Positions 1 through 16,905 of a stretch of DNA of 38,841 nucleotides are shown one piece after another. The translations under genes and the position numbers were made by a program. Location of the stretch: the IMG/VR virus record IMGVR_UViG_2541047816_000002; one strand, written 5' to 3'. Numbering within the stretch: the first letter of the stretch is position 1; each line of letters begins with the position of its first letter. The DNA comes from a virus (lineage: Duplodnaviria > Heunggongvirae > Uroviricota > Caudoviricetes). The notes under the pieces are model-generated. The model did no database searches, had not been told where the DNA came from, and was given only the letters and a program-made list of their open reading frames with translations.

Positions 1-1131
1 TCAAATGACCAGTTTTTTCCATTCCTTACCGCGTGCGTCGTTGTAAATATCGGTCATTTTTTGATTCGAATGGCCTAGCAAAATTTTGGTATCAACCCCC
101 TGCTCTCTGAACAATCGCTCTGATAAAGATCTCTGCTCATGGAAAGAGGGTGGGGTGCCATTAGCACGCCAGTTGTAATCCACAGAATCCCGGGCTTTTT
201 TAAATGCAACGGTTAATGTTGCTGGCTTAACCATCCCGCCGCGCTTAGCTGTCCCTTTCGCGTGATGGTGGTGCAATAGCCACGGACTAAGAACGCAATC
301 GCGGCAGGATGACACCACATCATCCAGGGTGAGATTTAATTTATCGCAACGCAGAGCCAGAGGGATGGCAATCCGGGTTCCTGTTTTTTGCTGTTCGACA
401 TGAAGATAACCATCCCGGATATCCGAAAATTGCATTTTGCAAATATCTGAAAGGCGCTGGCCTGTCATCAGTGCCAGCAGCATACCGCGCTGTAAAAAGT
501 AACCATCCTTTTCCGCTGCGTTATAAATCATCATCCACTCATCAAAAGTCAGTCGCTGTCTTGATATCCGCACCTGCGGTTTTTTTGCCGATTCTGCAGG
601 GTTAAAGCCTGGCGGGACATCGCCCGTTTGCTGAGCTTCCCGGAAAACATCGATCAGTACTTTCCTGAAAATTTGTCCCATTCTGTTATGTCCTCTGGCC
701 TTGTACTCTTCCAGTACTGATACCACATCTTTTACGGTTATGGCATCTAACGGTCTGGTGCCAAAACGTTCATCAAATACCCTGAGAGGGGCCGCTTTCT
801 GTTTCAGCGTGTTGAGTTTGATCTCGCCGTTTTCATATCTTTCCTGTTGAATTTTTCTGTAATTATTCAGAAAAATGGTAACGGTTGATGAACCGCCGGT
901 ATCACTAATAATTTTCTCCTGCAGACTGAGCATTTGTTCCATTTGCTGCCGGGCAAGACGGCTGTTCGCTTCTGCTGCAATAGTTTCTGCCAGTTTCTGG
1001 TCAATACTGCCGAGACCGTGATTTTTGCCTGTTATGGGATGCCTGTAACGCCAGTAAACTTTGTTATTTCTTTTGTCAAAATACGGAGATAATCCCGGAA
1101 CATCGGTTTTATATTTTCGCGGGCGCGCCAT
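1..1131 (-). CDS. int: Phage tyrosine integrase (site-specific recombinase)
   Basis: 376-aa ORF; C-terminal ...LLGHSNQKMTDIYNDARG... typical of lambda-family tyrosine recombinases; overlaps a downstream excisionase-like gene; stop codon is at nt 1-3 so attL lies outside the window. Confidence 0.88.
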   Translation of the reverse strand: MARPRKYKTDVPGLSPYFDKRNNKVYWRYRHPITGKNHGLGSIDQKLAETIAAEANSRLARQQMEQMLSLQEKIISDTGGSSTVTIFLNNYRKIQQERYENGEIKLNTLKQKAAPLRVFDERFGTRPLDAITVKDVVSVLEEYKARGHNRMGQIFRKVLIDVFREAQQTGDVPPGFNPAESAKKPQVRISRQRLTFDEWMMIYNAAEKDGYFLQRGMLLALMTGQRLSDICKMQFSDIRDGYLHVEQQKTGTRIAIPLALRCDKLNLTLDDVVSSCRDCVLSPWLLHHHHAKGTAKRGGMVKPATLTVAFKKARDSVDYNWRANGTPPSFHEQRSLSERLFREQGVDTKILLGHSNQKMTDIYNDARGKEWKKLVI

Positions 1132-4930: not shown

Positions 4931-5099
4931 GATGGCAGCCTCCGCGATGAATTTGATTAACTCACCACCGAGGTTTTCCACGACCATAAGGGTGGTGAGA
5001 CGTACAGGGGTGGAAATACCGGTCATCACGGAACCCGGCCAGCCTTGCGGCTGCCCTGCACGCCCCACCATAATGCGAATGTGGCTGTGCTTAACGCAT

Positions 5100-5122
5100 A
5101 AAAAAACCGCCTGAGCGCGGTT
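5100..5122 (-). terminator. Rho-independent terminator for leftward transcription
   Basis: Minus-strand hairpin AACCGC-loop-GCGGTT followed by a T7 run (an A run on the plus strand). Confidence 0.6.
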
Positions 5123-5799
5123 ATGCGCCGTGAATGATTTCGGGTTTCCACGCCCGGCACCCGTTTTATGAGGTGCAGGTGCACTATAATTCCACCCGTT
5201 CTGGTTTTCAATAGCTACATTCAACATTTTCTCTCACCTTTTCAGCGGAGTGAACTTTGTGATGCAGTGCCTGGTGCCTCCAGGTGACGTTAACCAGTTA
5301 ACAATTAACGCCGGATACAGAGAATCCACCCATAACACTGTTTTTGGTTTTAACTGTTCCGCGTGCGCTGAGCCGCATTCACCGCATCACAAAATTCACT
5401 TTAAAAAGGGCGGCAGAGCAGTCACGGAGTAAAACTGATACCGCCAAACGTCACCAGAAAATTGATAACAGAGGGCGTTGCAGCGGGGTTGTCACTTAAG
5501 CGTATGGTCAACCTGACAACCCGGTGTCCTCAACGGGGGAAGGAATAACCCCGCCATACTTACCGCCGCGCCATTTCGCGGATTGCCACAACCGGAAGCG
5601 CACGGTCGACGAAAATTTAACGACAGGCTATCTATGAACCAGCTACCTCGCCGTGCGCTTTCGCGTTATGGTCTGACTTTTCAGGGAAATATCCTTTCAG
5701 TAAACTGTCAGTGCCGGATTCTTATCCGTGTCCGGCGCACGACCACACGCTGTCACGAGAGGTCTCCATTCTCAACCAGTAACCTCAATGGAGGATAAA

Positions 5800-6750: not shown

Positions 6751-7170
6751 CTATGATGCGTTTTGTGCTTTCTTTTTACGGATTTCTTCGTAGATCATAT
6801 TGTAATACTGTTTTTTCTCTTCAAGAGTTTTTAATAATTTATCCGCTTCACTTTCTGGCAGTTCGTCTAAGAGATCTAAAAAAATACGTTGTCGTGGCGT
6901 TAGAACCCTTGTTTCATAACTGGAGGCTGTGTTCGTTGATGATGAAACGATACCATCCATCCATCCCCGGGGTAACCCAAAGGACTCTTCGATAATCTCC
7001 ACCATATCATCAGCGATCCGTTTTTTTCCCTTTTTCCCCTCTGGGTACAACATTCTTGATACATAAGAAGGCTCGCGCCCGATCTTTCTGGCCACGTTAA
7101 CCGCTTTACCATCGCATTTCTCATCACGAATTTTGATGAGTTGCTGTCGTCTAAATTCATATTTGTCCAT
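6751..7170 (-). CDS. Prophage repressor, HTH protein without a LexA-like peptidase domain
   Basis: 139 aa; divergent from a Cro-like gene; CII/Cro-like HTH segment ...GKAVNVARKIGREPSYVSRML...; no Ser/Lys autocleavage module evident. Confidence 0.65.
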   Translation of the reverse strand: MDKYEFRRQQLIKIRDEKCDGKAVNVARKIGREPSYVSRMLYPEGKKGKKRIADDMVEIIEESFGLPRGWMDGIVSSSTNTASSYETRVLTPRQRIFLDLLDELPESEADKLLKTLEEKKQYYNMIYEEIRKKKAQNAS

Positions 7171-7190
7171 AGGTAAATAATAGATGCGAT

Positions 7191-7246
7191 TACCGCAAGG
7201 TAAACAACCTGTGGGTATTGACTTTTGTTTACCTGTGGGTATTCTT
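7191..7246. promoter_or_regulatory. Right operator/promoter region: three TACC-N4-GGTA-like sites (7191-7202, 7206-7217, 7230-7241) overlapping a rightward promoter (-35 TTGACT 7218-7223, -10 TATTCT 7240-7245)
   Basis: Repeated operator motif between divergent repressor and Cro-like genes; RBS AGGAG at 7261. Confidence 0.55.
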
Positions 7247-7270
7247 TGCTGTGTTTACTAAGGAGTAGCT

Positions 7271-7552
7271 ATGGAAGAATTAAGAATATTTCTCAATTCT
7301 CTTTCGTCAGATGAACAGCGTATGTTTGCATGCGAGTGTGGTACCAGCATCGGTTATCTAAGAAAGGCATTGAGTAAAGGTCAAGTGTTAGGGGCATCGT
7401 TATGTGTCCTTATTGAGCGAGCCAGTAATGGTGAAGTTACACGTCAGCAACTAAGGCCTTTTGATTGGATGAATATTTGGCCCGAGCTGGAAGATACCAA
7501 AACGTTAACACAACCACTTTCTAGGAGCTTGATTCATGAAAATCAAGCATGA
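7271..7552 (+). CDS. Cro-like / YdaS-like HTH regulator
   Basis: 93 aa; first rightward gene after the operators; AGGAG RBS. Confidence 0.6.
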   Translation: MEELRIFLNSLSSDEQRMFACECGTSIGYLRKALSKGQVLGASLCVLIERASNGEVTRQQLRPFDWMNIWPELEDTKTLTQPLSRSLIHENQA

Positions 7553-7961
7553 ACACATCCGCATGGCGATGAATGCCTGGGCGCGTCCTGATGGCGAAAA
7601 AGTTCCAGCAGCTGGAATAACCCAGGCTTATTTTGAGTTGGGTATGACGTTCCCAGAACTGTATGACGACAGCCATCCGGAAGCCCTGGCTCGCAATACC
7701 CAGAAAATTTTCCGCTGGGTAGAGAAAGACACCCCTGATGCTGTTGAAAAAATGCAGGCTCTGTTACCGGCGATCGAAAAGGCGATGCCGCCTTTGCTGG
7801 TGGCCCGTATGCGCAGCCACAGTTCTGAATATTACCGTGAGATCGTCGAACGGAGGGATCGGCTGGTGAAGGATGTCGATGATTTTGTTGCGTCAGCGGT
7901 TGTTTTGTATGACCAGATGAATCGCGGCGGCCCGGCAGGGAATGCTGTGGTGATGCACTAA
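7536..7961 (+). CDS. YdaT-like protein (CII-position regulator)
   Basis: 141 aa; overlaps Cro-like gene end; position and size match ydaT-type genes of Rac-like prophages (recalled). Confidence 0.5.
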   Translation: MKIKHEHIRMAMNAWARPDGEKVPAAGITQAYFELGMTFPELYDDSHPEALARNTQKIFRWVEKDTPDAVEKMQALLPAIEKAMPPLLVARMRSHSSEYYREIVERRDRLVKDVDDFVASAVVLYDQMNRGGPAGNAVVMH

Positions 7962-7983
7962 AAGCACGGTGTTCGGGGGTTTT

Positions 7984-8946
7984 ATGAGCAGCAAGCTTCA
8001 TGGTCTTGTCTGGGAAGGGTGCGCCTTCACCGGCATGATCTTATCCAGGGTGGCGGTTATGGCCCGTCTTGCAGACTACAGCAATGACGAGGGCGTGTCA
8101 TGGCCTGCCATTGAAACTATCCGGCGTCAGATCGGTGCAAGAAGTGAATCCACAGTGAAATCGGCTATTGCAGAACTGGCGAAAGAGGGCTGGCTGACGA
8201 AGGAAGAGCGTAAGGTCGGTGGGCGTAATGTAAGCAATATCTATCGGCTTAATGTGGAAAAACTCGAAGCAGCTGCGGCGGCGGCGCGTGAGTCATATAA
8301 ACCGAAAAGAAAAATTAGCCCGGCAAAAAATGACCCGTTAACAGTTGACCCGTCAAATATTGACCCCTCAACGGTTGACCCGTCAAATTTTGATGGATCA
8401 ACTGTTGATAAAAAACTGCCGATTAGGGGGGCGATGATTGACCCCGATCCGTCAGTATTAAAACCTGATCCGTCAGATAAAAGATCTTCTTGTCCGGACG
8501 CTTCGCAACCGGACCCGCAGACGGCTGAACAGGATTTTTTAACCCGACACCCTGACGCGGTTGTGTTCAGTGCGAAAAAACGCCAGTGGGGAAGTCAGGA
8601 AGATTTGGTGTGCGCACAGTGGATCTGGGGACGAATCGTGAGTCTTTACGAGCAGGCGGCCAGCTATGATGGCGAGATCACTAGACCGAAAGAACCCAAC
8701 TGGACAGCATGGGCCAATGACGTTCGCACAATGCGGATGCTGGATGGCAGAACTCACAGACAAATTTGTGAAATGTTTGGGCGTCTCCAGCGGGATTCGT
8801 TCTGGGTAAAAAACATCATGAGTCCGGCAAAACTCCGGGAAAAATGGGATGAACTGGTTATCCGCCTGGGGCGTTCGCCTGCGCAGCGTTGCGTGAATCA
8901 CATTTCTGAACCGGACACTGAAATACCGCCGGGATTCAGGGGGTGA
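7984..8946 (+). CDS. Replication initiator (lambda O-like function; HTH N-terminal domain), alternative GTG start at 7969
   Basis: N-terminal ...AIETIRRQIGARSESTVKSAIAELAKEGWL... replication-protein HTH; iterons inside the gene; followed by DnaC-like loader. Confidence 0.65.
   Translation: MSSKLHGLVWEGCAFTGMILSRVAVMARLADYSNDEGVSWPAIETIRRQIGARSESTVKSAIAELAKEGWLTKEERKVGGRNVSNIYRLNVEKLEAAAAAARESYKPKRKISPAKNDPLTVDPSNIDPSTVDPSNFDGSTVDKKLPIRGAMIDPDPSVLKPDPSDKRSSCPDASQPDPQTAEQDFLTRHPDAVVFSAKKRQWGSQEDLVCAQWIWGRIVSLYEQAASYDGEITRPKEPNWTAWANDVRTMRMLDGRTHRQICEMFGRLQRDSFWVKNIMSPAKLREKWDELVIRLGRSPAQRCVNHISEPDTEIPPGFRG
8330..8404. repeat. Putative replication origin iterons: five ~15-bp direct repeats (TTGACCCGTCAA-like) inside the initiator gene
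   Basis: atgacccgttaacag / ttgacccgtcaaata / ttgacccctcaacgg / ttgacccgtcaaatt / ttgatggatcaactg at 15-bp period; related GATCCGTCAG copies at 8443-8476. Confidence 0.6.
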
Positions 8947-8952
8947 CGTGTC

Positions 8953-9699
8953 ATGAAAAACATTGCGGCAGTTGGGGTTCTTGAACGTATTCGCAGACTT
9001 GCACCACAGGGGTCGGTTCCACCGTACCGGACGGTGGAGGAGTGGCGGGAATGGCAACTTGCTGAAGGACGAAAACGCAGCGAGGAGATTAACCGCCAGA
9101 ATCGCCAGTTGCGGGTGGAAAAAATCCTGAATCGTTCGGGCATCCAGCCTCTGCACAGCAAATGCTCGTTTGCAAATTATCAGGTGCAGAACGACGGGCA
9201 AAAATACGCGCTGAGCCAGGCCAAATCCATAGCTGACGAACTGATGACCGGGTGCACGAATTTTGTGTTCAGCGGTAAAACCGGCACCGGGAAAAATCAC
9301 CTTGCAGCGGCGATGGGCAACCGGCTGATGGTGAAGGGGCGCAGCGTGATTATCGTCACCGTGTCTGACGTCATGAGCGTGTTGCATGACAGCTACGACA
9401 ACGGCAAATCCGGGGAAAAATTTTTACAGGAGCTTTGCGGGGTTGATTTGCTGGTCCTGGATGAAATAGGCGTTCAGCGGGAGACGAAAAACGAGCAGGT
9501 GGTATTGCACCAGATAATTGATCGCCGGACAGCATCACTGTGCAGTGTCGGGATGTTAACAAACCTGAATCATGCCGCAATGAGTACGCTTCTTGGTGAG
9601 AGGATTATGGACCGCATGACCATGAACGGTGGTCGATGGGTGACGTTTAACTGGGATAGCTGGCGTCCAAATGTCAGCAATATGAGGGTTGTGAAGTAA
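8953..9699 (+). CDS. DnaC-like helicase loader (IstB-like AAA+ ATPase)
   Basis: Walker A GKTGTGKNHLA, Walker B LLVLDEIG; directly downstream of initiator. Confidence 0.85.
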   Translation: MKNIAAVGVLERIRRLAPQGSVPPYRTVEEWREWQLAEGRKRSEEINRQNRQLRVEKILNRSGIQPLHSKCSFANYQVQNDGQKYALSQAKSIADELMTGCTNFVFSGKTGTGKNHLAAAMGNRLMVKGRSVIIVTVSDVMSVLHDSYDNGKSGEKFLQELCGVDLLVLDEIGVQRETKNEQVVLHQIIDRRTASLCSVGMLTNLNHAAMSTLLGERIMDRMTMNGGRWVTFNWDSWRPNVSNMRVVK

Positions 9700-9720
9700 T
9701 TTTGTCCGGAGGAAATTTTA

Positions 9721-10491
9721 ATGGAAACCGTATCTGACGCACTGAAAGCACTGAAAAAAGCCTCTTCACATGTGGTGGCAGCTCGCCTTGGAATCAGTCG
9801 TGAAGAGGCTGTCAACGAGCTGTGGGAACTCAAAAGAAAAGGCGTCGTTGATAAAACTGGTCACACCTGGTTTCTGGCTGGCGAAGGTGAATCCCGGGTA
9901 ACCGAAGAGCGGCCAGTAAAATCTGAAGCACAGGATATGCTGACCGGGGAGGTCGAACAAAAAGTTACCGCAGACATGATGATTGAGTTTATCGGTCAGG
10001 ATGGGGCTAAAACGTGTGAGGAACTGGCGGGTAAGTTCGGTGTCAGTACTCGCAAGGTTGCTTCCACGCTGGCGGTGGTAACCGCAACGGGGCGGCTGGC
10101 ACGCGTTAATCAGAACGGTAAATTTCGTTACTGCATGCCGGGCGATAATTTACCAGCAGAGCCGAAAGCCGCGCTGGTAACGGAAAGTGATGGTAAGGCC
10201 TTTCCTCAGCCAGCAGGTGCTGCGTTACCAGTCCGGGAAGCCGCAACACAGGAAGAAATTAAAACAGAAACTGTGGCGGACATTGTGCAGCCGTTGCCAT
10301 CGTTTACCGAAACGCAAGCAGATGAGCTGATTTTTCCGTCCCTTCGCAGGGCAAACCTGGCGCTGCGCAGGGCGAAAAGTGATGTTCAGAAGTGGGAGCG
10401 AGTCTGCGCCGCGCTGCGGGAGCTGAACAAGCACCGGGATATTGTTCGACAGATTACTGATTCTTCCCGCCGTGTTGTATCGGAAAAGTGA
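9721..10491 (+). CDS. Hypothetical protein with two winged-helix-like segments
   Basis: 256 aa; GGAGG RBS; two HTH-like stretches (ARLGISREEAVNELWELKRKG; AGKFGVSTRKVASTLAVV). Confidence 0.55.
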   Translation: METVSDALKALKKASSHVVAARLGISREEAVNELWELKRKGVVDKTGHTWFLAGEGESRVTEERPVKSEAQDMLTGEVEQKVTADMMIEFIGQDGAKTCEELAGKFGVSTRKVASTLAVVTATGRLARVNQNGKFRYCMPGDNLPAEPKAALVTESDGKAFPQPAGAALPVREAATQEEIKTETVADIVQPLPSFTETQADELIFPSLRRANLALRRAKSDVQKWERVCAALRELNKHRDIVRQITDSSRRVVSEK

Positions 10492-10506
10492 TTGCCGGAG
10501 GCGCTT

Positions 10507-10932
10507 ATGGCAAAAGTATTTACACAAGAAGAGCGGGAAAAAATTAAAGGGCAGGTTGTTGAACTTGTACGTCTGAGCGGTCGCGAGACGTTGCGGCAAC
10601 TGGAAGCCAAGACAGGTGCGACAAGATATCTGATGAGTGTTCTCGCCAGAGAGCTGGTTGCCAGTGGCGATGTATACAACTCTGGTTACGGGTTATTCCC
10701 GTCTGAACAGGCGCGTAAGGACTGGCAAAATGCTCGCAAAAAACTCTCAAGGGCAAAGGTGAAGAAACCTGCAGTGGTTGATCCGGACCTTATCTGGTCG
10801 TTACCAGACGGCGAAATACGCCGCTACGACAGGCGCCTGAATATAATCTGTCGCGAGTGCCGGAAGAGCGAAGCTATGCAGCGTGTACTGGCATTTTATC
10901 AAGGAAATGTTAGGTATTTTAGACGTTACTAG
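10507..10932 (+). CDS. Hypothetical protein (141 aa)
   Basis: ATG at 10507 with GGAG RBS; track start at 10492 is TTG. Confidence 0.5.
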   Translation: MAKVFTQEEREKIKGQVVELVRLSGRETLRQLEAKTGATRYLMSVLARELVASGDVYNSGYGLFPSEQARKDWQNARKKLSRAKVKKPAVVDPDLIWSLPDGEIRRYDRRLNIICRECRKSEAMQRVLAFYQGNVRYFRRY

Positions 10933-11085
10933 ATTAAAGAGCATTAGTTCAGATGTGAATTGACATTTTCATGGCGCAGGGTAGAGCCAGCGTGGTTGTC
11001 CGCTTTGCGTCAAAACCAGATATTACCAGATTTAGACATATATTCCCGATAGCCCTGCTCTGATGCTACACTCTGTGCTATTTTC

Positions 11086-11772
11086 ATGACCCCAATAAAA
11101 ATATTTATGACTATTGCTGATTTCAAACGGCCTAAATTGGAGCTCCCAAACGGGGCAAACAAACTACTACTGCACTCTTGCTGTGCTCCATGTTCCGGTG
11201 AAGTGATGGAGGCGCTTCAGGCCTCGGGAATCGACTACACCATCTTTTTCTACAACCCGAACATTCATCCTCAGAAAGAGTATTTAATTCGTAAGGATGA
11301 AAATATTCGCTTTGCTGAACAACACGGCGTGCCGTTTATCGATGCTGATTACGACACCGACAACTGGTTTGAACGTGCCAAAGGAATGGAATGGGAGCCT
11401 GAGAGGGGGATCCGTTGTACCATGTGTTTTGACATGCGTTTTGAGCGGACAGCGTTGTACGCTGCTGAAAATGGTTTCAGTGTGATCAGCAGTTCACTGG
11501 GCATTTCACGCTGGAAAAATATGCAGCAGGTTAACGAGTGTGGGCGGCGAGCTGTTGCGCATTATCCGGGTATGGTGTACTGGGATTATAACTGGCGCAA
11601 GCAGGGCGGCTCGTCCCGTATGATTGAAATCAGCAAGCGCGAAAAATTCTATCAGCAGGAATATTGTGGCTGTGTGTATTCTCTGCGCGATACCAATCTA
11701 CACCGCAAATCTCAGGGACGCCCTCTTATCAAAATTGGCCAACTCCACTACGGAAAAGAAGAGAAGGAGTGA
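11086..11772 (+). CDS. DUF208 / QueH-like protein (epoxyqueuosine reductase family)
   Basis: 228 aa with ...[11 protein letters not shown]... Cys cluster characteristic of QueH/DUF208, plus further conserved Cys (CTMCF, CGC). Confidence 0.6.
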
Positions 11773-12009
11773 TTTTATGGATCACCTTTCTGATTGATTT
11801 CATATTGGCGAGGTGACGTGAGTTAAGTAGAATGGCTGCGGGTGCTTGAGGCTATCTGTCTCAGGCATGAACACTGAAAGGCAGATAGAGAAAAGCCCCA
11901 GTTAACATTTCGCGTCCTGCAAGACGCTTAACATTAATCTGAGGCCCAATCTATGTCTCACAAATGTAGGTTAGCCTCTTACGTGCCGAAAGGCAAGGGG
12001 AAGCAGGCT

Positions 12010-12165
12010 ATGAAGCAGCAAAAGGCGATGTTAATCGCCCTGATCGTCATCTGTTTAACCGTCATAGTGACGGCACTGGTAACGAGGAAAGACCTCTGCG
12101 AGGTACGAATCCGAACCGGCCAGACGGAGGTCGCTGTCTTCACAGCTTACGAACCTGAGGAGTAA
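12010..12165 (+). CDS. hok: Hok/Gef-family type I toxin (small membrane peptide)
   Basis: MKQQKAMLIALIVICLTVIVTALVTRKDLCEVRIRTGQTEVAVFTAYEPEE matches recalled HokD/RelF; intrinsic terminator follows. Confidence 0.85.
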   Translation: MKQQKAMLIALIVICLTVIVTALVTRKDLCEVRIRTGQTEVAVFTAYEPEE

Positions 12166-12235
12166 GAGACCCGGCGAGGGAGAAATCCCTCGCCACCTCT
12201 GATGTGGCAGGTATCCTCAACGCACCCGCACTTAA

Positions 12236-12260
12236 CCCGCTTCGGCGGGTTTTTGTTTTT
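12236..12260 (+). terminator. Rho-independent terminator after hok
   Basis: cccgc-ttcg-gcggg hairpin followed by TTTTTGTTTTT. Confidence 0.7.
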
Positions 12261-12381
12261 ATTTTCAACGCATTTGAAGTTCTGGACGGTGCCGGAATAG
12301 AATCAAAAATACTTAAGTAGCGCGCAGGGATAAGAGGGATGGTCCCTTAAAGGGGAGAGCTAATTATCCGGAAGGATTCTG

Positions 12382-12633
12382 ATGATGAACATCGAAGAAC
12401 TGCGTAAAATTTTTTGTGAAGATGGCCTCTATGCTGTGTGCGTTGAAAATGGAAATATTGTTAGTCATTACCGCATTGTGTGTTTGCAAAAAAATGGGGC
12501 TGCGTTAATTAATTTTGTGGATGCCCGAGTGACGGACGGATTTATCTTGCGCGACGGTGAGTTTGTCACTTCATTACAGGTATTGAAAGAGATCGGAATA
12601 AAAGCTGGCTTTTCTGCTTTTTCAGAAGAATAA
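12382..12633 (+). CDS. Rem-like small prophage protein
   Basis: 83 aa MMNIEELRKIFCEDGLYAV...; resembles recalled Qin-prophage Rem; GGAAGG RBS. Confidence 0.55.
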   Translation: MMNIEELRKIFCEDGLYAVCVENGNIVSHYRIVCLQKNGAALINFVDARVTDGFILRDGEFVTSLQVLKEIGIKAGFSAFSEE

Positions 12634-12699
12634 ACTCATCTACAATCTTGCGCGGGGCTGAACTCCCGCTGAGTAACACCGTGCCACCGGAGAAAACCG

Positions 12700-12978
12700 A
12701 TGGCACGCAACGCAAAATATTACAAACATGATAATTCGACCGTTCTTGCCCACACGCACGAGCGGTATTCTCACGCATTTAAGTCAGACTGGTACCAGCA
12801 TCCCCCATGCACTGAAGAACAGGCCGAATGGCTAATTCATAACTACCGCAGACGCGGATACGAGATTAAGAAAGCCCTCAGCCTCGATTATCGTCACTGG
12901 ATAATCTCCGTCAGGCTTCCTTACTCCGAACGCCCACCGCGTCTGTCCCGCACATTCCAGCAACGCATCTGGAGGTAA
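12700..12978 (+). CDS. Hypothetical protein (92 aa)
   Basis: GGAG RBS; ORF ends 2 nt before next gene. Confidence 0.5.
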   Translation: MARNAKYYKHDNSTVLAHTHERYSHAFKSDWYQHPPCTEEQAEWLIHNYRRRGYEIKKALSLDYRHWIISVRLPYSERPPRLSRTFQQRIWR

Positions 12979-12979
12979 C

Positions 12980-14035
12980 GTGCGGGTATTACTTCGACCT
13001 GTTCTGGTACCGGAACTCGGGCTGGTGATCGTTAAGCCGGGCAGTGAATCCATGCCGGTATTCCACAATACCCGGGTACTGGTGGAGCCGGAACCGAAAA
13101 CCATGCGTAATCTGCCGTCCGGGGTCGTTCCTGCCGTTCGCCAGCCGCTGGCGGAGGATAAATCATTACTGCCATTTTTCAGCGACGAACGAGTGATTCG
13201 TGCTGCTGGTGGCGCTGGCGCATTGTCTGACTGGTTACTGCGCCATGTTAAATCCTGCCAGTGGCCACACGGCGATTATCACCACAGTGAAACCGTCATT
13301 CACCGTTATGGTACCGGCGCAATGGTGTTGTGCTGGCACTGCGACAACCAGCTGCGCGACCAGACCTCCGAATCACTCGGGCAACTTGCTCACCAAAACC
13401 TGTTTGCATGGATGATTGACGTCATACGCCATGCAATGAATGGCTCGCAGGAACGGGAATTATCGCTGGCTGAATTATCCTGGTGGGCGGTCCGCAATCA
13501 GGTGGCGGACGCGCTACCGGAAGCGGTATTACGTCGTTCGCTGGGGTTGCGTGCGGAAAAAATCCGCTCAATGTACCGTGAAAGCGACATCGTACCGGGA
13601 GAGCAGACCGCCACCAGCATACTGAAGCAGCGCACAAAAAATCTTGCGCCGCTGCCTCACGCCCACCAGCAAAACCCGCCACAGGAAAAGACGGTGGTCA
13701 GCATTGCCGTTGATCCGGAGTCACCGGCTCAGTATCTCCAGCGCCAGAAATCACAACGGGAAGAGATGCCTGTATACACGCGTTGGGTAAAAACGCAGAA
13801 ATGCATGACGTGTGGCAATCAGGCAGATGATCCGCATCACATCATTGGTCATGGACTGGGAGGGATGGGAACAAAGGCTGATGATTTGTTTGTTATTCCG
13901 CTGTGCCGTAAATGCCATAGCGAACTACACGCCGGGGTAGAAGATTTTGAAGAAAAACACGGCAGCCAGCTGTTGTTGCTGATTCGTTTTTTAATGCACG
14001 CGAGAAATTCGGGTGTTTTGAAGTGGAAAGCATAA
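12980..14035 (+). CDS. DUF968-like prophage protein with C-terminal Cys/His (HNH-like) motif
   Basis: GTG start with GGAGG RBS; C-terminal ...CMTCGNQADDPHHIIGHG...IPLCRKCHSELH... Confidence 0.6.
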   Translation: MRVLLRPVLVPELGLVIVKPGSESMPVFHNTRVLVEPEPKTMRNLPSGVVPAVRQPLAEDKSLLPFFSDERVIRAAGGAGALSDWLLRHVKSCQWPHGDYHHSETVIHRYGTGAMVLCWHCDNQLRDQTSESLGQLAHQNLFAWMIDVIRHAMNGSQERELSLAELSWWAVRNQVADALPEAVLRRSLGLRAEKIRSMYRESDIVPGEQTATSILKQRTKNLAPLPHAHQQNPPQEKTVVSIAVDPESPAQYLQRQKSQREEMPVYTRWVKTQKCMTCGNQADDPHHIIGHGLGGMGTKADDLFVIPLCRKCHSELHAGVEDFEEKHGSQLLLLIRFLMHARNSGVLKWKA

Positions 14036-14416
14036 ATGACTGAACGCATAGAATTTGTTTTGCCTTACCCGCCAACGGTGAACACTTACTGGCGACGCCG
14101 TGGCAGCACATATTTTGTATCAAAAGCCGGGGAGCGTTATCGCCGGGCAGTGGCGCTTATTGTTCGCCAGCAGCGGCTGAAATTAAGCCTGTCCGGAAGG
14201 TTGGCAATAAAAATTATTGCAGAACCACCGGATAAGCGCCGCCGTGACCCGGACAATATTCTGAAAGCGCCGCTGGATGCGCTGACGCATGCGGGGTTGC
14301 TAATGGACGATGAGCAGTTTGATGAAATCAATATCGTTCGTGGTCAGCCAGTATCTGGTGGACGTCTGGGGGTGAAGATTTACCCCATAATGCTTGAAGG
14401 GCAGGTCAAAAAATGA
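14036..14416 (+). CDS. rusA: Holliday junction resolvase RusA
   Basis: 126 aa; ...DPDNILKAPLDALTHAGLLMDDEQ... matches RusA catalytic region (recalled E. coli RusA). Confidence 0.88.
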   Translation: MTERIEFVLPYPPTVNTYWRRRGSTYFVSKAGERYRRAVALIVRQQRLKLSLSGRLAIKIIAEPPDKRRRDPDNILKAPLDALTHAGLLMDDEQFDEINIVRGQPVSGGRLGVKIYPIMLEGQVKK

Positions 14417-15234
14417 AACTGGAAGATTTACCGAAATACTACTCCCCAAAATCCCCCGGCCTGACCGATGCGTCCGCCTCGACATCAAAAGATGCGCTGA
14501 GTATCACTGATGTGATGGCCGCGCAGGGCATGACACAAAATCGGGCTGAGATGGGTTTTTCTGCGTTCCTTGGGAAAATGGGCATTAGTATGAATGACAG
14601 AGAGCGGGCAACAGAATTGCTGACAGAATATGCACTCAGTCGGTGTGATCGCGTGGCGGCGTTAAGAAAACTCCCGGCAGAAATAAAACCGGTAGTGATG
14701 CGCATTATGGCTTCGTACGCTTTTGAGGATTATGCCCGCAGCGCAGCGAGTAAAAAGCAGTGCCCTTGTTGCTATGGGGAAAAATTTATTGAAAGCGTAG
14801 TTTTTACAAACAAGGTCCAGTATCCGGATGGTAAGCCGCCGGTATGGGCAAAGTGTACGAAAGGTGTGTATCCGTCTTACTGGGAAGAATGGAAAAAAGT
14901 CAGGGAGGTGGTAAAAGTTGCCTGTCCGGAGTGTGGCGGAAAGGGTGAGGTTTCCACCGCCTGTAAGGATTGCCGTGGGCGTGGTGTCGCCATTCATCGT
15001 GAAGAGTCGGTAAAACGTGGTATGCCTGTTATCAGAGACTGCCAGCGTTGTGGTGGTCGTGGCTGTGAAAGACTACCATCAACGGAGGCATTTAATGCCA
15101 TACGCAAAGTGACGAGTGCTATCACGCTTGATACGTGGAAAAAATCAGTGAAACGCTTTTACGATACGTTGGTGGTTCGGTTTGACATTGAAGAGGCATG
15201 GGCGGAGCGGCAGTTAAAGAGGGTAACGCGATAG
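14413..15234 (+). CDS. Late antiterminator Q (zinc-finger type)
   Basis: 273 aa; three CxxCxGxG repeats (CPECGGKG, CKDCRGRG, CQRCGGRG); lies immediately upstream of a lambda-like pR'/qut. Confidence 0.7.
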   Translation: MKLEDLPKYYSPKSPGLTDASASTSKDALSITDVMAAQGMTQNRAEMGFSAFLGKMGISMNDRERATELLTEYALSRCDRVAALRKLPAEIKPVVMRIMASYAFEDYARSAASKKQCPCCYGEKFIESVVFTNKVQYPDGKPPVWAKCTKGVYPSYWEEWKKVREVVKVACPECGGKGEVSTACKDCRGRGVAIHREESVKRGMPVIRDCQRCGGRGCERLPSTEAFNAIRKVTSAITLDTWKKSVKRFYDTLVVRFDIEEAWAERQLKRVTR

Positions 15235-15239
15235 TGTTG

Positions 15240-15300
15240 TTGATTTTTCCCGAATCTGTGGTAAATTTGCTCTAACGATGGGCGTTTTATGCCTGACGTT
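15240..15300 (+). promoter_or_regulatory. Late promoter pR' with qut-like element (-35 TTGATT 15240-15245, -10 TAAATT 15262-15267, pause-inducing AACGAT downstream)
   Basis: TAAATTTGCTCTAACGATGGG closely matches recalled lambda pR' TAAATTTGACTCAACGATGGG. Confidence 0.65.
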
Positions 15301-15316
15301 AGAAGATTTTTTACAC

Positions 15317-15338
15317 CCCGCCGCCTGGCGGGTTTTTT
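15317..15338 (+). terminator. tR'-like intrinsic terminator ~45-60 nt downstream of the pR' start
   Basis: cccgcc-gcct-ggcggg hairpin followed by T6. Confidence 0.65.
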
Positions 15339-15460
15339 ATGACTGAAATCGCGTCAGTACAGTAAACGCGCTGGTGGCGGTGAATACCTGTCTTTCAGCT
15401 TGCTGGCTTTTTCGACAAGAGTTATTGGTGTGTCACGTTAACCGGAAAAGGGAAAAAGAC

Positions 15461-15658
15461 ATGCTAAAACAGCAGGATATGACAGAAACCGCCAGAGTAG
15501 TGTTTAATGAATTAAGAGTTACCGAACCGGCGACAGTCGGGGAGATAGCGCAGAATACTTACCTTTCACGCGAACGCTGCCAGTTAATACTGACCCAGCT
15601 GGTTATGGCGGGTCTGGCAGACTATCAGTTCGGTTGTTACAGACGCCTTCCGCAGTGA
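15461..15658 (+). CDS. Hypothetical small protein (65 aa, possibly winged-helix)
   Basis: ATG at 15461 after A/G-rich RBS; stop codon lies inside a terminator hairpin. Confidence 0.45.
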   Translation: MLKQQDMTETARVVFNELRVTEPATVGEIAQNTYLSRERCQLILTQLVMAGLADYQFGCYRRLPQ

Positions 15659-15668
15659 AGGCTTTTTT
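15645..15668 (+). terminator. Rho-independent terminator
   Basis: gccttc-cgcagt-gaaggc hairpin followed by T6. Confidence 0.55.
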
Positions 15669-15808
15669 ATTTGTGGTAAATGGGCGGCTGGTGGGTGTTA
15701 GGGGCACCCACCAGCCATCTGCTCATGCGTTGGGTTCACAAGCAAACCTCAGGCCCACTGCTTTGCGCAAAAGCAGAATGAGCCTATCAGAGACAGGCTT
15801 AATGATCC

Positions 15809-16856
15809 ATGCTTAATACTGTAAAAATATCCAGTTGTGAGTTAATCAACGCCGACTGCCTGGAATTTATCCGGTCGTTACCCGAAAATTCTGTTGACCT
15901 GATAGTCACGGACCCGCCGTACTTTAAAGTGAAGCCTGAGGGCTGGGATAACCAGTGGAAGGGCGACGATGATTACCTGAAGTGGCTGGACCAGTGTCTG
16001 GCGCAGTTCTGGCGGGTGCTGAAACCTGCCGGAAGTCTTTACCTGTTCTGTGGTCATCGCCTGGCATCTGATATCGAAATCATGATGCGTGAACGCTTCA
16101 GTGTGCTGAACCATATTATCTGGGCGAAGCCGTCCGGACGCTGGAACGGATGCAACAAGGAAAGCCTGCGGGCGTATTTCCCCGCCACAGAGCGCATTCT
16201 GTTCGCGGAACATTATCAGGGGCCGTATCGTCCGAAAGATGCCGGGTATGCGGTGAAGGGCAGTGCACTGAAACAGCATGTGATGGCCCCGCTGATTTCT
16301 TACTTTCGTGATGCGCGCGGCCCTGGGGATAACGGCAAAACAGATTGCAGATGCCACAGGAAAGAAAAACATGGTGTCGCACTGGTTCAGTGCCAGTCAG
16401 TGGCAGCTACCGAACGAAAGCGATTATCTGAAATTACAGTCGCTGTTTGCCCGGGTGGCAGAAGAGAAACATCAGCGCGGTGAACTGGAAAAGCCCCACC
16501 ACCAGCTGGTGGATACGTATACGTCACTGAACCGGCAGTATGTGGAGCTGCAGAGTGAATATAAGCATCTGCGGCGGTATTTTGGTGTGACGGCGCAGGT
16601 GCCGTACACGGATGTGTGGACACATAAACCGGTGCAGTTCTATCCCGGGAAACATCCGTGCGAAAAACCGGCAGAAATGCTGCAGCAGATAATCAGCGCA
16701 AGTAGCCGTCCTGGTGATCTGGTTGCGGATTTTTTCATGGGGTCGGGTTCAACGGTAAAAGCGGCGATGGCACTGGGGCGTCGTGCGATTGGTGTTGAGC
16801 TGGAGACCGGACGTTTTGAGCAGACAGTCAGGGAAGTTCAGGATTTAATCGTTTGA
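15809..16856 (+). pseudogene. DNA methyltransferase (beta-class N6A/N4C, DPPY motif), frameshifted
   Basis: Two overlapping ORFs in different frames: 15809-16483 carries motif IV DLIVTDPPYF, 16308-16856 carries motif I FFMGSGST; frame switch near 16300-16330. Confidence 0.6.
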
Positions 16857-16905
16857 AACGGATGAGATTGCAGAATTAATTACGCACCATTATTATTCTG
16901 CTCCC

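What the first reader, a model, noticed from the sequence alone, without database searches (positions are those of the whole stretch)
12010..12262. Hok-family type I toxin locus; antisense RNA partner not yet located
The 51-aa Hok/Gef-type toxin ORF is followed by a strong terminator. Hok loci normally have an overlapping mok frame and a short antisense Sok RNA in the leader (here expected within ~11850-12010), and the track ORF extends upstream in frame (MSHKCRLASYVPKGKGKQA...). This is a functional addiction/abortive-infection-type module as prophage cargo.
Basis: partly seen in the sequence, partly recalled or inferred. Interest (0 to 1): 0.4.

Follow-up and report, generated by a model that had tools for sequence, protein, structure and literature searches.

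The report
Complete hok/mok/sok toxin-antitoxin cassette in prophage
This is an ordinary, intact copy of the well-known hok/sok toxin-antitoxin module (HokD type) in a lambda-like prophage of E. coli, and its "missing" antisense RNA partner lies on the opposite strand at 11961-11891, just upstream of the toxin gene.

Summary
12010-12165 encodes a 51-aa Hok toxin (Pfam HOK_GEF, E 3e-23) that is 51/51 identical to E. coli K-12 HokD/RelF. A terminator follows at 12234-12259.

The coordinates given cover only the 3' two-thirds of the module. The whole cassette spans about 11805-12259 and has every part of a hok/mok/sok locus:
- hok promoter (TTGGCG-17-TAGAAT) and mRNA start at 11840;
- Rfam hok leader, 120.5 bits;
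- in-frame mok (ATG 11953);
- tac (11840-51) paired with fbi (12215-27), with the tac/ucb alternative.

The antisense partner is now located. Sok is about 71 nt on the minus strand, 11961->11891. Its promoter is TTGCCT (11996-91), 17 nt, TAACCT (11973-68). It maps onto the annotated K-12 sokC. Its -35 to -10 region is base-for-base identical to the experimentally validated sokW promoter of Sakai prophage Sp5. Its hairpin shows strand-specific covariation: 86 G.U versus 0 A.C cells.

Matching DNA occurs in 4938 of 5426 complete E. coli genomes. RefSeq annotates only the hokD CDS, without mok or sok. The "addiction/abortive infection" role is untested. The only direct data on a prophage homologue point to induction-triggered help with lysis.

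Verdict: already known, low interest.

The parts
11805..11833 (+). hok/mok mRNA promoter: -35 TTGGCG (11805-10), 17-nt spacer, -10 TAGAAT (11828-33)
   Evidence: Consensus scan, 9/12 matches. The -10 and the GTTAA before it are conserved in K-12 hokC, phage Rac and strain 14EC047. The -35 lies outside the homology with the Sp5-type cassette.
11840..12259 (+). Full-length hok mRNA (about 420 nt), from GGGUGC... to the terminator T-run
   Evidence: Homology in about 50 loci from Escherichia, Kluyvera, Photorhabdus, Erwinia, Pantoea and others begins at nt 1 = 11840. The Rfam model starts there too. MFE is -170 kcal/mol, z = -6.9. The ends are inferred, not mapped.
11840..11851 (+). tac (translational activator element), GGGUGCUUGAGG
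   Evidence: Pairs with fbi in the full-length MFE, with ucb in 3'-truncated RNA, and with 11858-11868 in the first 41 nt as a metastable hairpin.
11893..11899 (+). ucb / anti-SD box, AAGCCCC
   Evidence: Pairs with tac in truncated-mRNA folds and in the Rfam consensus structure.
11891..11961 (-). Sok antisense RNA, about 71 nt: 14-nt single-stranded 5' tail, long hairpin, GGGGCUUUU 3' end. It is complementary to the mok SD and start codon.
   Evidence: The annotated K-12 sokC maps to 11961->11885. The 71-nt length equals that reported for sokW. Fold is -28.1 kcal/mol for 71 nt and -31.6, z = -4.8, for 82 nt. Of 13 conserved pairs, 5 carry double changes. Pairing is 96.5% on this strand against 74.8% on the other, with 86 G.U and 0 A.C cells.
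11968..11996 (-). Sok promoter: -35 TTGCCT (11996->11991), 17-nt spacer, -10 TAACCT (11973->11968); start G at 11961
   Evidence: The 30-nt probe YO-597 of Takada 2021 (-35 through -10 of sokW) matches the window exactly at 11969-11998. Their promoter-less mutant changes TAACCTA to GAGCCGG at this same element (PMC8621323). The consensus scan does not detect it.
11941..11944 (+). mok Shine-Dalgarno, GAGG
   Evidence: Lies 8 nt before ATG 11953. Pairs with dcb GCCUC (11974-78) in the Rfam consensus and in the MFE. Covered by Sok.
11953..12165 (+). mok reading frame (70 codons), in frame with hok and containing it
   Evidence: ORF list. Same arrangement as the annotated K-12 mokC/hokC. The ATG is conserved across genera while its flanks vary.
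12010..12165 (+). hok toxin gene, 51 aa; SD AAGGGGA at 11995-12001
   Evidence: PF01848 at E 3e-23. 51/51 identical to K-12 HokD and 92% to HokW.
12148..12151 (+). TACG motif at Tyr47, a candidate TadA A-to-I editing site (Tyr->Cys)
   Evidence: The motif is present and sits in a predicted loop. Editing of K-12 hokD at the equivalent Tyr is reported in PMC5630033. Not tested for this locus.
12173..12194 (+). 3' UTR stem-loop GGCGAGGGA-GAAA-UCCCUCGCC, the probable protective 3' hairpin of the processed (truncated) mRNA
   Evidence: Present in all folds. The role is inferred from the R1 model (PMC9841398).
12215..12227 (+). fbi (fold-back inhibitory element), CCUCAACGCACCC
   Evidence: Pairs 12/12 with tac, with one bulge, duplex -21.5 kcal/mol. 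Compensatory U-A to C-G at tac position 4 in 7 of 22 distinct sequences. G12->A is accompanied by C->U.
12234..12259 (+). Intrinsic terminator of hok mRNA
   Evidence: Terminator scan. Homology with relatives that carry a different downstream module ends at 12255-12260.

Best explanation
This is an intact hok/mok/sok type I toxin-antitoxin cassette of the HokD/HokW (prophage) subgroup. It sits in the nin region of a lambdoid E. coli prophage, between queH and rem-DUF968-rusA-Q, and is co-oriented with the early-right operon.

Mechanism. The anatomy is shown; the kinetics are inferred from plasmid R1 hok/sok and Sp5 hokW-sokW.
- A stable mRNA of about 420 nt starts at 11840.
- While nascent, tac is held in a metastable 5' hairpin.
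- When complete, the 5' tac pairs with the 3' fbi, locking the RNA in a form that is neither translated nor bound by Sok.
- Slow 3' trimming back to the 12173-12194 hairpin removes fbi. tac then switches to ucb, exposing the mok ribosome-binding site.
- Hok is made only through translational coupling to mok.
- The unstable 71-nt Sok RNA (11961->11891, own constitutive promoter) pairs across the mok SD and start codon. This blocks mok, and so hok, translation, and the duplex is cut by RNase III.
- When Sok synthesis stops, the processed mRNA pool is translated and Hok depolarises the inner membrane.

Role (about 0.4). As for hokW-sokW, prophage induction removes Sok and Hok then assists lysis and phage release. 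I suggest, as inference only, that antiterminated early transcription running head-on into the Sok promoter is what removes Sok.
For: - Toxin: PF01848 at E 3e-23; 51/51 identical to HokD.
- Leader: Rfam RF01794 at 120.5 bits against a gathering score of 59.
- Sok: maps onto the annotated sokC. Its promoter is identical to the mutationally validated sokW promoter. Its length and architecture equal the 71-nt sokW.
- Sok hairpin: 5 of 13 pairs carry compensatory changes. 0/500 shuffles reach the observed covariation score. 96.5% of cells pair on the minus strand against 74.8% on the plus strand. There are 86 G.U cells against 0 A.C cells.
- tac/fbi: pairing appears in the full-length MFE, z = -6.9. 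It is found at the same place in about 40 loci from 8 or more genera, with compensatory changes.
- Predicted conformers reproduce the R1 three-state model: metastable, tac/fbi and tac/ucb (definitions from PMC9841398).
- hokW-sokW is 91.9% identical over 11820-12237. It has been shown to be a working type I TA in which induction removes sokW and HokW is produced (PMC8621323).
- Context and orientation.
Against: - Nothing here shows expression. Transcript ends, 3' processing, mok-hok coupling and RNase III cleavage are all inferred.
- The consensus scan does not call the Sok promoter or terminator.
- In the full-length MFE the mok SD pairs with dcb, and ucb pairs with the hok SD. The published R1 model has mok SD paired with ucb, so that detail is not reproduced.
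- The NCBIfam Hok subfamily model scores below its cut-off, 48.5 against 73.
- Chromosomal hokA, hokB and hokC loci tested earlier did not mediate post-segregational killing (summarised in bioRxiv 10.1101/2025.08.07.668861).
- This Sok differs from sokW at 5 of its first 16 nt, and this Hok differs from HokW at 4 C-terminal residues. Behaviour need not be the same.
- The head-on interference idea is untested. Takada et al. saw no rise in hokW mRNA after induction.
Confidence: 0.9

Rival explanations
1. Prophage addiction (post-segregational killing). The cassette kills cells that lose or excise the prophage, because stable hok mRNA outlives unstable Sok. This stabilises lysogeny, as hok/sok does for plasmid R1.
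For: [quoted passage not shown]
Against: Prophage loss without induction is rare. Deleting hokW-sokW from Sp5 had no growth phenotype, and the measured effect appeared on induction. Chromosomal hok loci tested earlier did not mediate PSK. Nothing in the sequence separates this role from the others.
Confidence: 0.25
2. Abortive infection or superinfection exclusion. Infection by a lytic phage shuts off host transcription, Sok decays, and Hok kills the cell before the invader matures.
For: R1 hok/sok on a high-copy plasmid reduced T4 plating by 42% and plaque size by about 85%, as cited in PMC8621323. The cassette is mosaic cargo with breakpoints at its edges.
Against: No PADLOC defence model matches. 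hok loci are not enriched near defence systems. The slow 3' processing of hok mRNA is poorly matched to fast lytic cycles (inference). No data exist for HokD or HokW-type cassettes.
Confidence: 0.15
3. A sequence-intact but physiologically silent remnant. The locus is carried along with the nin region, and Hok is never produced at effective levels.
For: Several chromosomal hok loci are inactive or were not activated by rifampicin. The K-12 copy of this same gene has lost its whole leader upstream of 11996 to relBE.
Against: Every regulatory element is present. Two of the RNA structures keep their pairing through compensatory changes across genera. The coding region is far less diverse than the UTRs. 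The closest characterised relative is active. All 42 of 45 Hok representatives that were toxic included HokD.
Confidence: 0.12

Closest known systems
hokD (relF) of the Qin cryptic prophage, E. coli K-12
   Same: The Hok protein is identical, 51/51. DNA is 98% identical from 11996 to 12700. Downstream synteny is the same: hok-rem-DUF968(ydfU)-Q(ydfT).
   Different: K-12 homology starts only at 11996, where relBE replaces everything upstream. K-12 therefore lacks the hok promoter, tac, ucb, Sok, the Sok -10 and the mok start. The window holds the complete, presumably ancestral, form.
hokW-sokW of Sakai prophage Sp5 / 933W-type Stx phages (Takada et al. 2021, PMC8621323)
   Same: 91.9% nucleotide identity over 11820-12237. 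The Sok promoter is identical (30/30 nt). Sok has the same 71-nt architecture with the extended hairpin, and tac and fbi are the same. It has been shown experimentally to be a type I TA.
   Different: The Sok 5' tail and mok start differ at 5 of the first 16 nt (Mok MSHKC against MLNTC). The Hok C-terminus is TAYEPEE here and VDYESEK in HokW. The -35 of the hok promoter lies outside the homology. The cassette sits in a different prophage region: next to an EaA-like gene in the Stx phage, and in the nin region here.
hok/mok/sok of plasmid R1 (the paradigm), with chromosomal hokC/sokC (gef)
   Same: All named elements are present in the same order: promoter, tac, ucb, Sok target, mok, dcb, hok, fbi, terminator. 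The Rfam leader model matches end to end. The same predicted conformational switch appears.
   Different: HokW is 44% identical to R1 Hok, and the hokC locus is 76% identical in DNA. The Sok hairpin here carries an extra 18-20 nt apical stem-loop (11913-11930) that hokC and most other genera lack. The setting is a prophage, not a plasmid.

Membership tests
hok/mok/sok type I toxin-antitoxin | Hok/Gef toxin of about 50 aa with an N-terminal hydrophobic helix | tested here: met
   PF01848 at 81.6 bits against a cut-off of 22, E 3e-23. PHROG 251 at E 2.8e-33.
hok/mok/sok type I toxin-antitoxin | mok frame starting upstream of hok and overlapping it, with its own SD | tested here: met
   ATG 11953 with GAGG 8 nt upstream, in frame with hok as in the annotated K-12 mokC. 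The ATG is conserved across genera. Translational coupling itself cannot be tested here.
hok/mok/sok type I toxin-antitoxin | Cis-encoded antisense Sok RNA with its own promoter, complementary to the mok translation-initiation region | tested here: met
   Maps to the annotated sokC. Promoter identical to the validated sokW promoter. Strand-specific covariation in the hairpin. Expression not tested.
hok/mok/sok type I toxin-antitoxin | Conserved structured hok mRNA leader (Rfam RF01794) | tested here: met
   120.5 bits against a gathering score of 59, full model 1-157.
hok/mok/sok type I toxin-antitoxin | Long-range tac/fbi pairing of the mRNA 5' and 3' ends | tested here: met
   Present in the full-length MFE. 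Duplex of -21.5 kcal/mol. Conserved position and compensatory changes in relatives.
hok/mok/sok type I toxin-antitoxin | Alternative tac/ucb pairing and a metastable 5' hairpin | tested here: met
   Predicted for 3'-truncated RNA and for the first 41 nt. These are thermodynamic predictions only.
hok/mok/sok type I toxin-antitoxin | mok SD sequestered by ucb in the full-length mRNA | tested here: inconclusive
   The MFE instead pairs mok SD with dcb, and ucb with the hok SD. Energy models cannot settle this.
hok/mok/sok type I toxin-antitoxin | Slow 3' processing of hok mRNA; RNase III cleavage of the Sok-mRNA duplex; differential RNA stability | not testable with these tools
   Needs a rifampicin chase with Northern blots and an rnc mutant.
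NCBIfam NF007279 (Hok family toxin subfamily model) | Score at or above the curated cut-off of 73 bits | tested here: not met
   48.5 bits. That model represents another Hok subgroup. RefSeq nevertheless names the identical protein HokD.
HokD orthologue group | Protein identity to K-12 HokD and conserved synteny with rem-DUF968-Q | tested here: met
   51/51 identical, with the same downstream genes.
Catalogued anti-phage defence systems (PADLOC) | Match to a defence-system protein model | tested here: not met
   No hit for Hok, QueH or Rem at E <= 0.01.

The most novel reading that the evidence does not exclude
The Sok 5' tail and mok-start segment (11945-11959) is by far the most variable 15-nt bin of the transcript among otherwise near-identical prophage cassettes. 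Diversity there is 0.27, against about 0.04 in the coding region. This segment would then be a diversifying specificity determinant, letting several co-resident prophage hok/sok cassettes (median 2, up to 9 matching places per genome) each depend on its own Sok. Separately, because the cassette is co-oriented with the early operon, antiterminated early transcription colliding head-on with the Sok promoter could be the unexplained link between prophage induction and Sok loss reported for hokW-sokW.
Probability: 0.3. Interest if true: 0.35.

Novelty: already known. Interest (0 to 1): 0.1.

Why it matters
It matters little for discovery. This is a textbook module, and similar DNA is present in about 90% of complete E. 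coli genomes. There are three practical points:
- Genome annotation lists only the hokD CDS. mok and the Sok RNA are systematically left out.
- The Rfam family called 'sok' reports the hok-sense strand, which can mislead anyone looking for the antitoxin.
- The window shows the complete form of the hokD locus that is truncated in K-12. It is a convenient native context for testing what prophage hok/sok cassettes do (lysis timing, addiction or exclusion) and whether Sok variants cross-protect.

Tried and rejected
- Consensus sigma-70 and terminator scan of 11700-12400. It found the hok promoter and terminator but nothing on the minus strand. I rejected this as evidence against Sok, because the validated sokW -10 is the same non-consensus TAACCT.
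- Taking the Rfam 'sok' hit on the + strand as the antitoxin itself. Rejected: in K-12 the same model hits the hokC strand, opposite the annotated sokC. The model describes the hok leader.
- A genome scan with a 7-member Hok alignment failed because no stretch was conserved enough. I used the single protein instead.
- NCBIfam gave only sub-threshold Hok and HokA hits. PADLOC gave none.
- I considered that the locus might be decayed like the K-12 hok loci. Rejected because every element is present and conserved.
- I considered that the window might come from E. albertii, since L089 is 99.4% identical over 946 nt. E. coli O16:H6 and other E. coli strains match 14 kb at 99.8-99.9%, so the source is most likely E. 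coli, though this is not certain.

Full report
OBSERVATION

The window holds a 51-codon ORF at 12010-12165 (+) and an in-frame 70-codon version starting at ATG 11953. The protein matches Pfam HOK_GEF (PF01848) at E 3e-23, 81.6 bits against a cut-off of 22. It also matches PHROG 251 'MokW-like host killing' at E 2.8e-33. It is 51/51 identical to HokD (RelF) of E. coli K-12. A G+C-rich 7-bp stem at 12234-12251 followed by a T-run is the only terminator-like site in 11700-12400. The coordinates given (12010-12262), however, contain only the toxin ORF and 3' UTR.

THE LEADER, AND A TRAP IN THE RFAM NAME

A scan of the whole window against Rfam gives a full-length hit of RF01794 'sok' at 11840-12015. 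It is on the + strand, the same strand as hok, at 120.5 bits (gathering score 59, E 4e-27). To see what that model represents, I ran it on the K-12 hokC/sokC locus. There the hit lies on the hokC strand (L003 754..602, minus), whereas the annotated sokC ncRNA is on the opposite strand (653..711, plus). RF01794 is thus a model of the hok mRNA 5' leader in the sense orientation. Its consensus structure is the tac/ucb stem, the Sok-target hairpin and the mok-SD/dcb hairpin. The hit proves that a conserved hok leader is present, not where Sok is.

LOCATING SOK

- I aligned the window with K-12 hokC/sokC, a phage Rac fragment with annotated mok and hok, and an E. coli hokD locus. This maps the annotated sokC to window 11961 (5') -> 11885 (3') on the minus strand.
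- Upstream on that strand lie TTGCCT (11996->11991), a 17-nt spacer and TAACCT (11973->11968). A G at 11961 sits 7 nt after the -10.
- The closest characterised locus is hokW-sokW of Sakai prophage Sp5 (Takada et al. 2021, PMC8621323). That study showed HokW is toxic. It showed sokW, expressed from its own promoter, neutralises the toxin, and that mutating the sokW -10 abolishes protection. It also showed sokW has 71 nt of complementarity to the hokW 5' UTR.
- All of their primers match Stx2 phage I (L084) exactly. Their 30-nt oligo YO-597, which spans the -35 to the -10 of sokW, matches the window exactly at 11969-11998.
- Their mutagenic primer shows that the element they destroyed is this TAACCT(A).
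- Counting 71 nt from 11961 ends exactly at the UUUU of GGGGCUUUU (11891). The 71-mer folds into a 14-nt free 5' tail plus a long hairpin (-28.1 kcal/mol), the same shape as sokW (-29.9). An 82-nt version gives z = -4.8 against shuffles.
- The simple consensus scan does not see this promoter or terminator, because the -10 matches only 3 of 6 consensus bases.

COMPARATIVE SUPPORT

Searching one genome per species with the Hok protein returned 53 loci in Escherichia, Shigella, Kluyvera, Pseudocitrobacter, Citrobacter, Photorhabdus, Pantoea, Erwinia and Kalamiella. An nhmmer search with the predicted mRNA shows that homology in nearly all of them begins at position 1-2 of the query, that is at 11840. 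This supports 11840 as the transcript start.

For the Sok region in 33 loci (31 distinct), RNAalifold predicts a 13-bp helix, and 5 of its pairs keep pairing through changes on both sides.
- 96.5% of cells pair. 0/500 column shuffles reach the observed paired fraction or covariation score. Sliding the partner by 1-3 columns drops pairing to 37-56%.
- The signal is strand-specific. In the Sok orientation there are 86 G.U cells and no A.C cells. Read on the hok strand, the same helix pairs in only 74.8% of cells.
- The helix is therefore maintained for the antisense RNA. One caveat is that the structure was predicted on that strand, which favours it somewhat. The 86:0 asymmetry is nevertheless hard to explain otherwise.

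THE mRNA SWITCH

- The full-length RNA (11840-12259) has an MFE of -170 kcal/mol, z = -6.9. In that fold nt 11840-11851 (GGGUGCUUGAGG) pair with 12215-12227 (CCUCAACGCACCC). This is the tac/fbi fold-back described for R1 (PMC9841398).
- In about 40 relatives the best duplex between the first 14 nt and the 3' UTR falls at the equivalent position, about +340 to +380. The sequences co-vary: GGGUGC/GCACCC in the Escherichia-Kluyvera group against GGGCGC/GCGCCC in Photorhabdus and Pantoea, and GAGG/CCUC against GAGA/UCUC.
- A formal count on the terminal 6-bp helix gives 99.2% pairing and one covarying pair (U-A 12, C-G 7, U-G 2). Two of 500 shuffles reach that score. This support is modest but consistent.
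- Removing the 3' end (RNAs ending at 12197-12213) makes tac pair with 11893-11899 (ucb) instead. The first 41 nt alone form a hairpin in which tac pairs with 11858-11868. These three predicted states correspond to the published nascent, full-length and truncated conformers.
- One detail is not reproduced. In my full-length MFE the mok SD pairs with dcb and ucb pairs with the hok SD, whereas the published model has mok SD paired with ucb. I leave that as inconclusive.

GENOMIC SETTING

- The 14 kb around the locus is 99.8-99.9% identical to prophages in several human E. coli isolates.
- RefSeq annotation of one of them gives the order: regulator, YdaT, replication genes, DUF1627, DUF977, QueH, hokD, small ORFs, DUF968, RusA, antiterminator, methyltransferase, three tRNAs, holin. 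This is a lambdoid prophage with the cassette in the nin region.
- The cassette is co-oriented with the early-right genes. About 95% of ORF length in 7000-20000 is on the + strand, and in 66 of 80 viral loci the flanks are mainly co-oriented with hok (a crude measure).
- K-12 Qin has the same hokD-rem-ydfU(DUF968)-ydfT(Q) order. Its homology with the window starts only at 11996, with relBE occupying the place of the leader. The window therefore carries the complete form of the locus that is truncated in K-12.
- Matching DNA is found in 4938 of 5426 complete E. coli genomes (median 2, up to 9 places per genome) and in 79 phage records. It is annotated variously as HokD, MokW, gef or 'host killer'.
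- In RefSeq only the hokD CDS is annotated, without mok or sok.
- The cassette behaves as a mosaic unit. Homology with different relatives starts at 11775 or 11820 and stops at 12255-12260. In many relatives the following 12261-12755 (rem) segment is replaced by an unrelated 123-bp segment.

FUNCTION

What is shown here is anatomy plus conservation. By homology to R1 and to hokW-sokW, I take the mechanism to be the standard one (confidence 0.9 that the module is of this kind and is built to work this way).
- The stable mRNA is held inactive by tac/fbi and activated by 3' trimming.
- Hok translation is coupled to mok.
- Sok blocks the mok ribosome-binding site and directs RNase III cleavage.
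- Hok is produced when Sok is no longer made.

The biological role is not settled by any sequence feature.
No defence model matches, however, and a recent survey found hok enriched in prophages but not near defence systems (bioRxiv 10.1101/2025.08.07.668861).
- The only direct experiments on a prophage homologue show the following. Induction (mitomycin C or heat, RecA-dependent) removes sokW. HokW then appears about 1 h before endolysin. Lysis starts about 40 min earlier, and twice as many phage are released.
- I therefore rank 'induction-triggered lysis helper' first (about 0.4), prophage addiction second (about 0.25), exclusion of other phages third (about 0.15) and a silent remnant last (about 0.12).
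- The authors could not say what removes sokW. The cassette is co-oriented with an early operon both here and, judging from its neighbours, in the Stx phage. I suggest head-on transcriptional interference at the Sok promoter by antiterminated early transcripts. This is inference only.

NOVELTY

Every element has a named, published counterpart. The protein is identical to HokD, and the RNA partner is a near-copy of an experimentally validated sRNA. This is already known, and the interest is low. The most interesting residue is the sharp diversity peak at 11945-11959, the Sok 5' tail and mok start. Diversity there is 0.27 against about 0.04 in the CDS, which could reflect diversification of antitoxin specificity among co-resident cassettes. 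I did not test that further.

Noticed in passing
window 11840-12015; L003 602-754: The Rfam family RF01794, named 'sok antitoxin', is modelled in the hok-sense orientation. In K-12 it hits the hokC strand, opposite the annotated sokC. Rfam-based annotation therefore puts 'sok' on the wrong strand and at more than twice its real length (157 nt against about 60-71 nt).
   Followed up: yes
window 11945-11959: This is the most variable 15-nt bin of the whole hok transcript among 64 distinct full-length relatives. Diversity is 0.27, against about 0.04 in the coding region. It is the Sok 5' single-stranded tail and mok start region; the mok ATG itself is conserved. It may act as a specificity determinant between co-resident cassettes.
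   Followed up: partly
window 11913-11930: An 18-20 nt insert forms an extra apical stem-loop (GCGUC-UUGCAG-GACGC on the Sok strand) in the Sok and target hairpin. It is present in the prophage HokD/HokW group and some Kluyvera loci. It is absent from hokC and from the Photorhabdus, Erwinia and Pantoea loci.
   Followed up: partly
window 12148-12151: A TACG motif lies at Tyr47 of Hok, in a predicted loop. The equivalent Tyr codon of K-12 hokD is reported to be A-to-I edited by TadA to Cys (PMC5630033). This would be an extra layer of control on toxicity.
   Followed up: partly
window 11775/11820 and 12255-12260; 12261-12755: Mosaic breakpoints coincide with the edges of the cassette. In many IMG/VR relatives that are 99.6% identical up to 12260, the rem-containing 495 bp is replaced by an unrelated 123 bp. 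Homology resumes at 12756.
   Followed up: partly
window 11086-11772: An epoxyqueuosine reductase QueH gene (Pfam E 1.1e-65) lies immediately upstream of the cassette as prophage cargo. The same prophage carries three tRNA genes at 16906-17152.
   Followed up: no
window 17232-17422 and 17700-17909: Two tandem copies of the sRNA family STnc100 (136 and 161 bits) lie just downstream of the three prophage tRNA genes and upstream of a 617-aa DUF6645 ORF.
   Followed up: no
window 4988-5459, minus strand: A cluster of prophage regulatory RNAs: C4 antisense RNA (4988-5075), isrK (5100-5176) and DicF (5408-5459).
   Followed up: no
window 12274-12303: A promoter-like site, TTGAAG-18-TAGAAT, lies directly after the hok terminator and about 80 nt before the rem-like ORF (12382-12633).
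   Followed up: no
L103, L108, L141: Near-identical hokD-type sequence sits on very short contigs (275 bp to 3 kb) assigned to Acinetobacter idrijaensis, Xanthomonas pisi and a 'Candidatus Scatousia' MAG. This is most likely E. coli or phage contamination of those assemblies rather than true hosts.
   Followed up: no
L114, L122, L130, L131: Some Enterobacteriaceae and Photorhabdus loci show two hok mRNA-like matches within about 1.5 kb, that is tandem hok cassettes.
   Followed up: no
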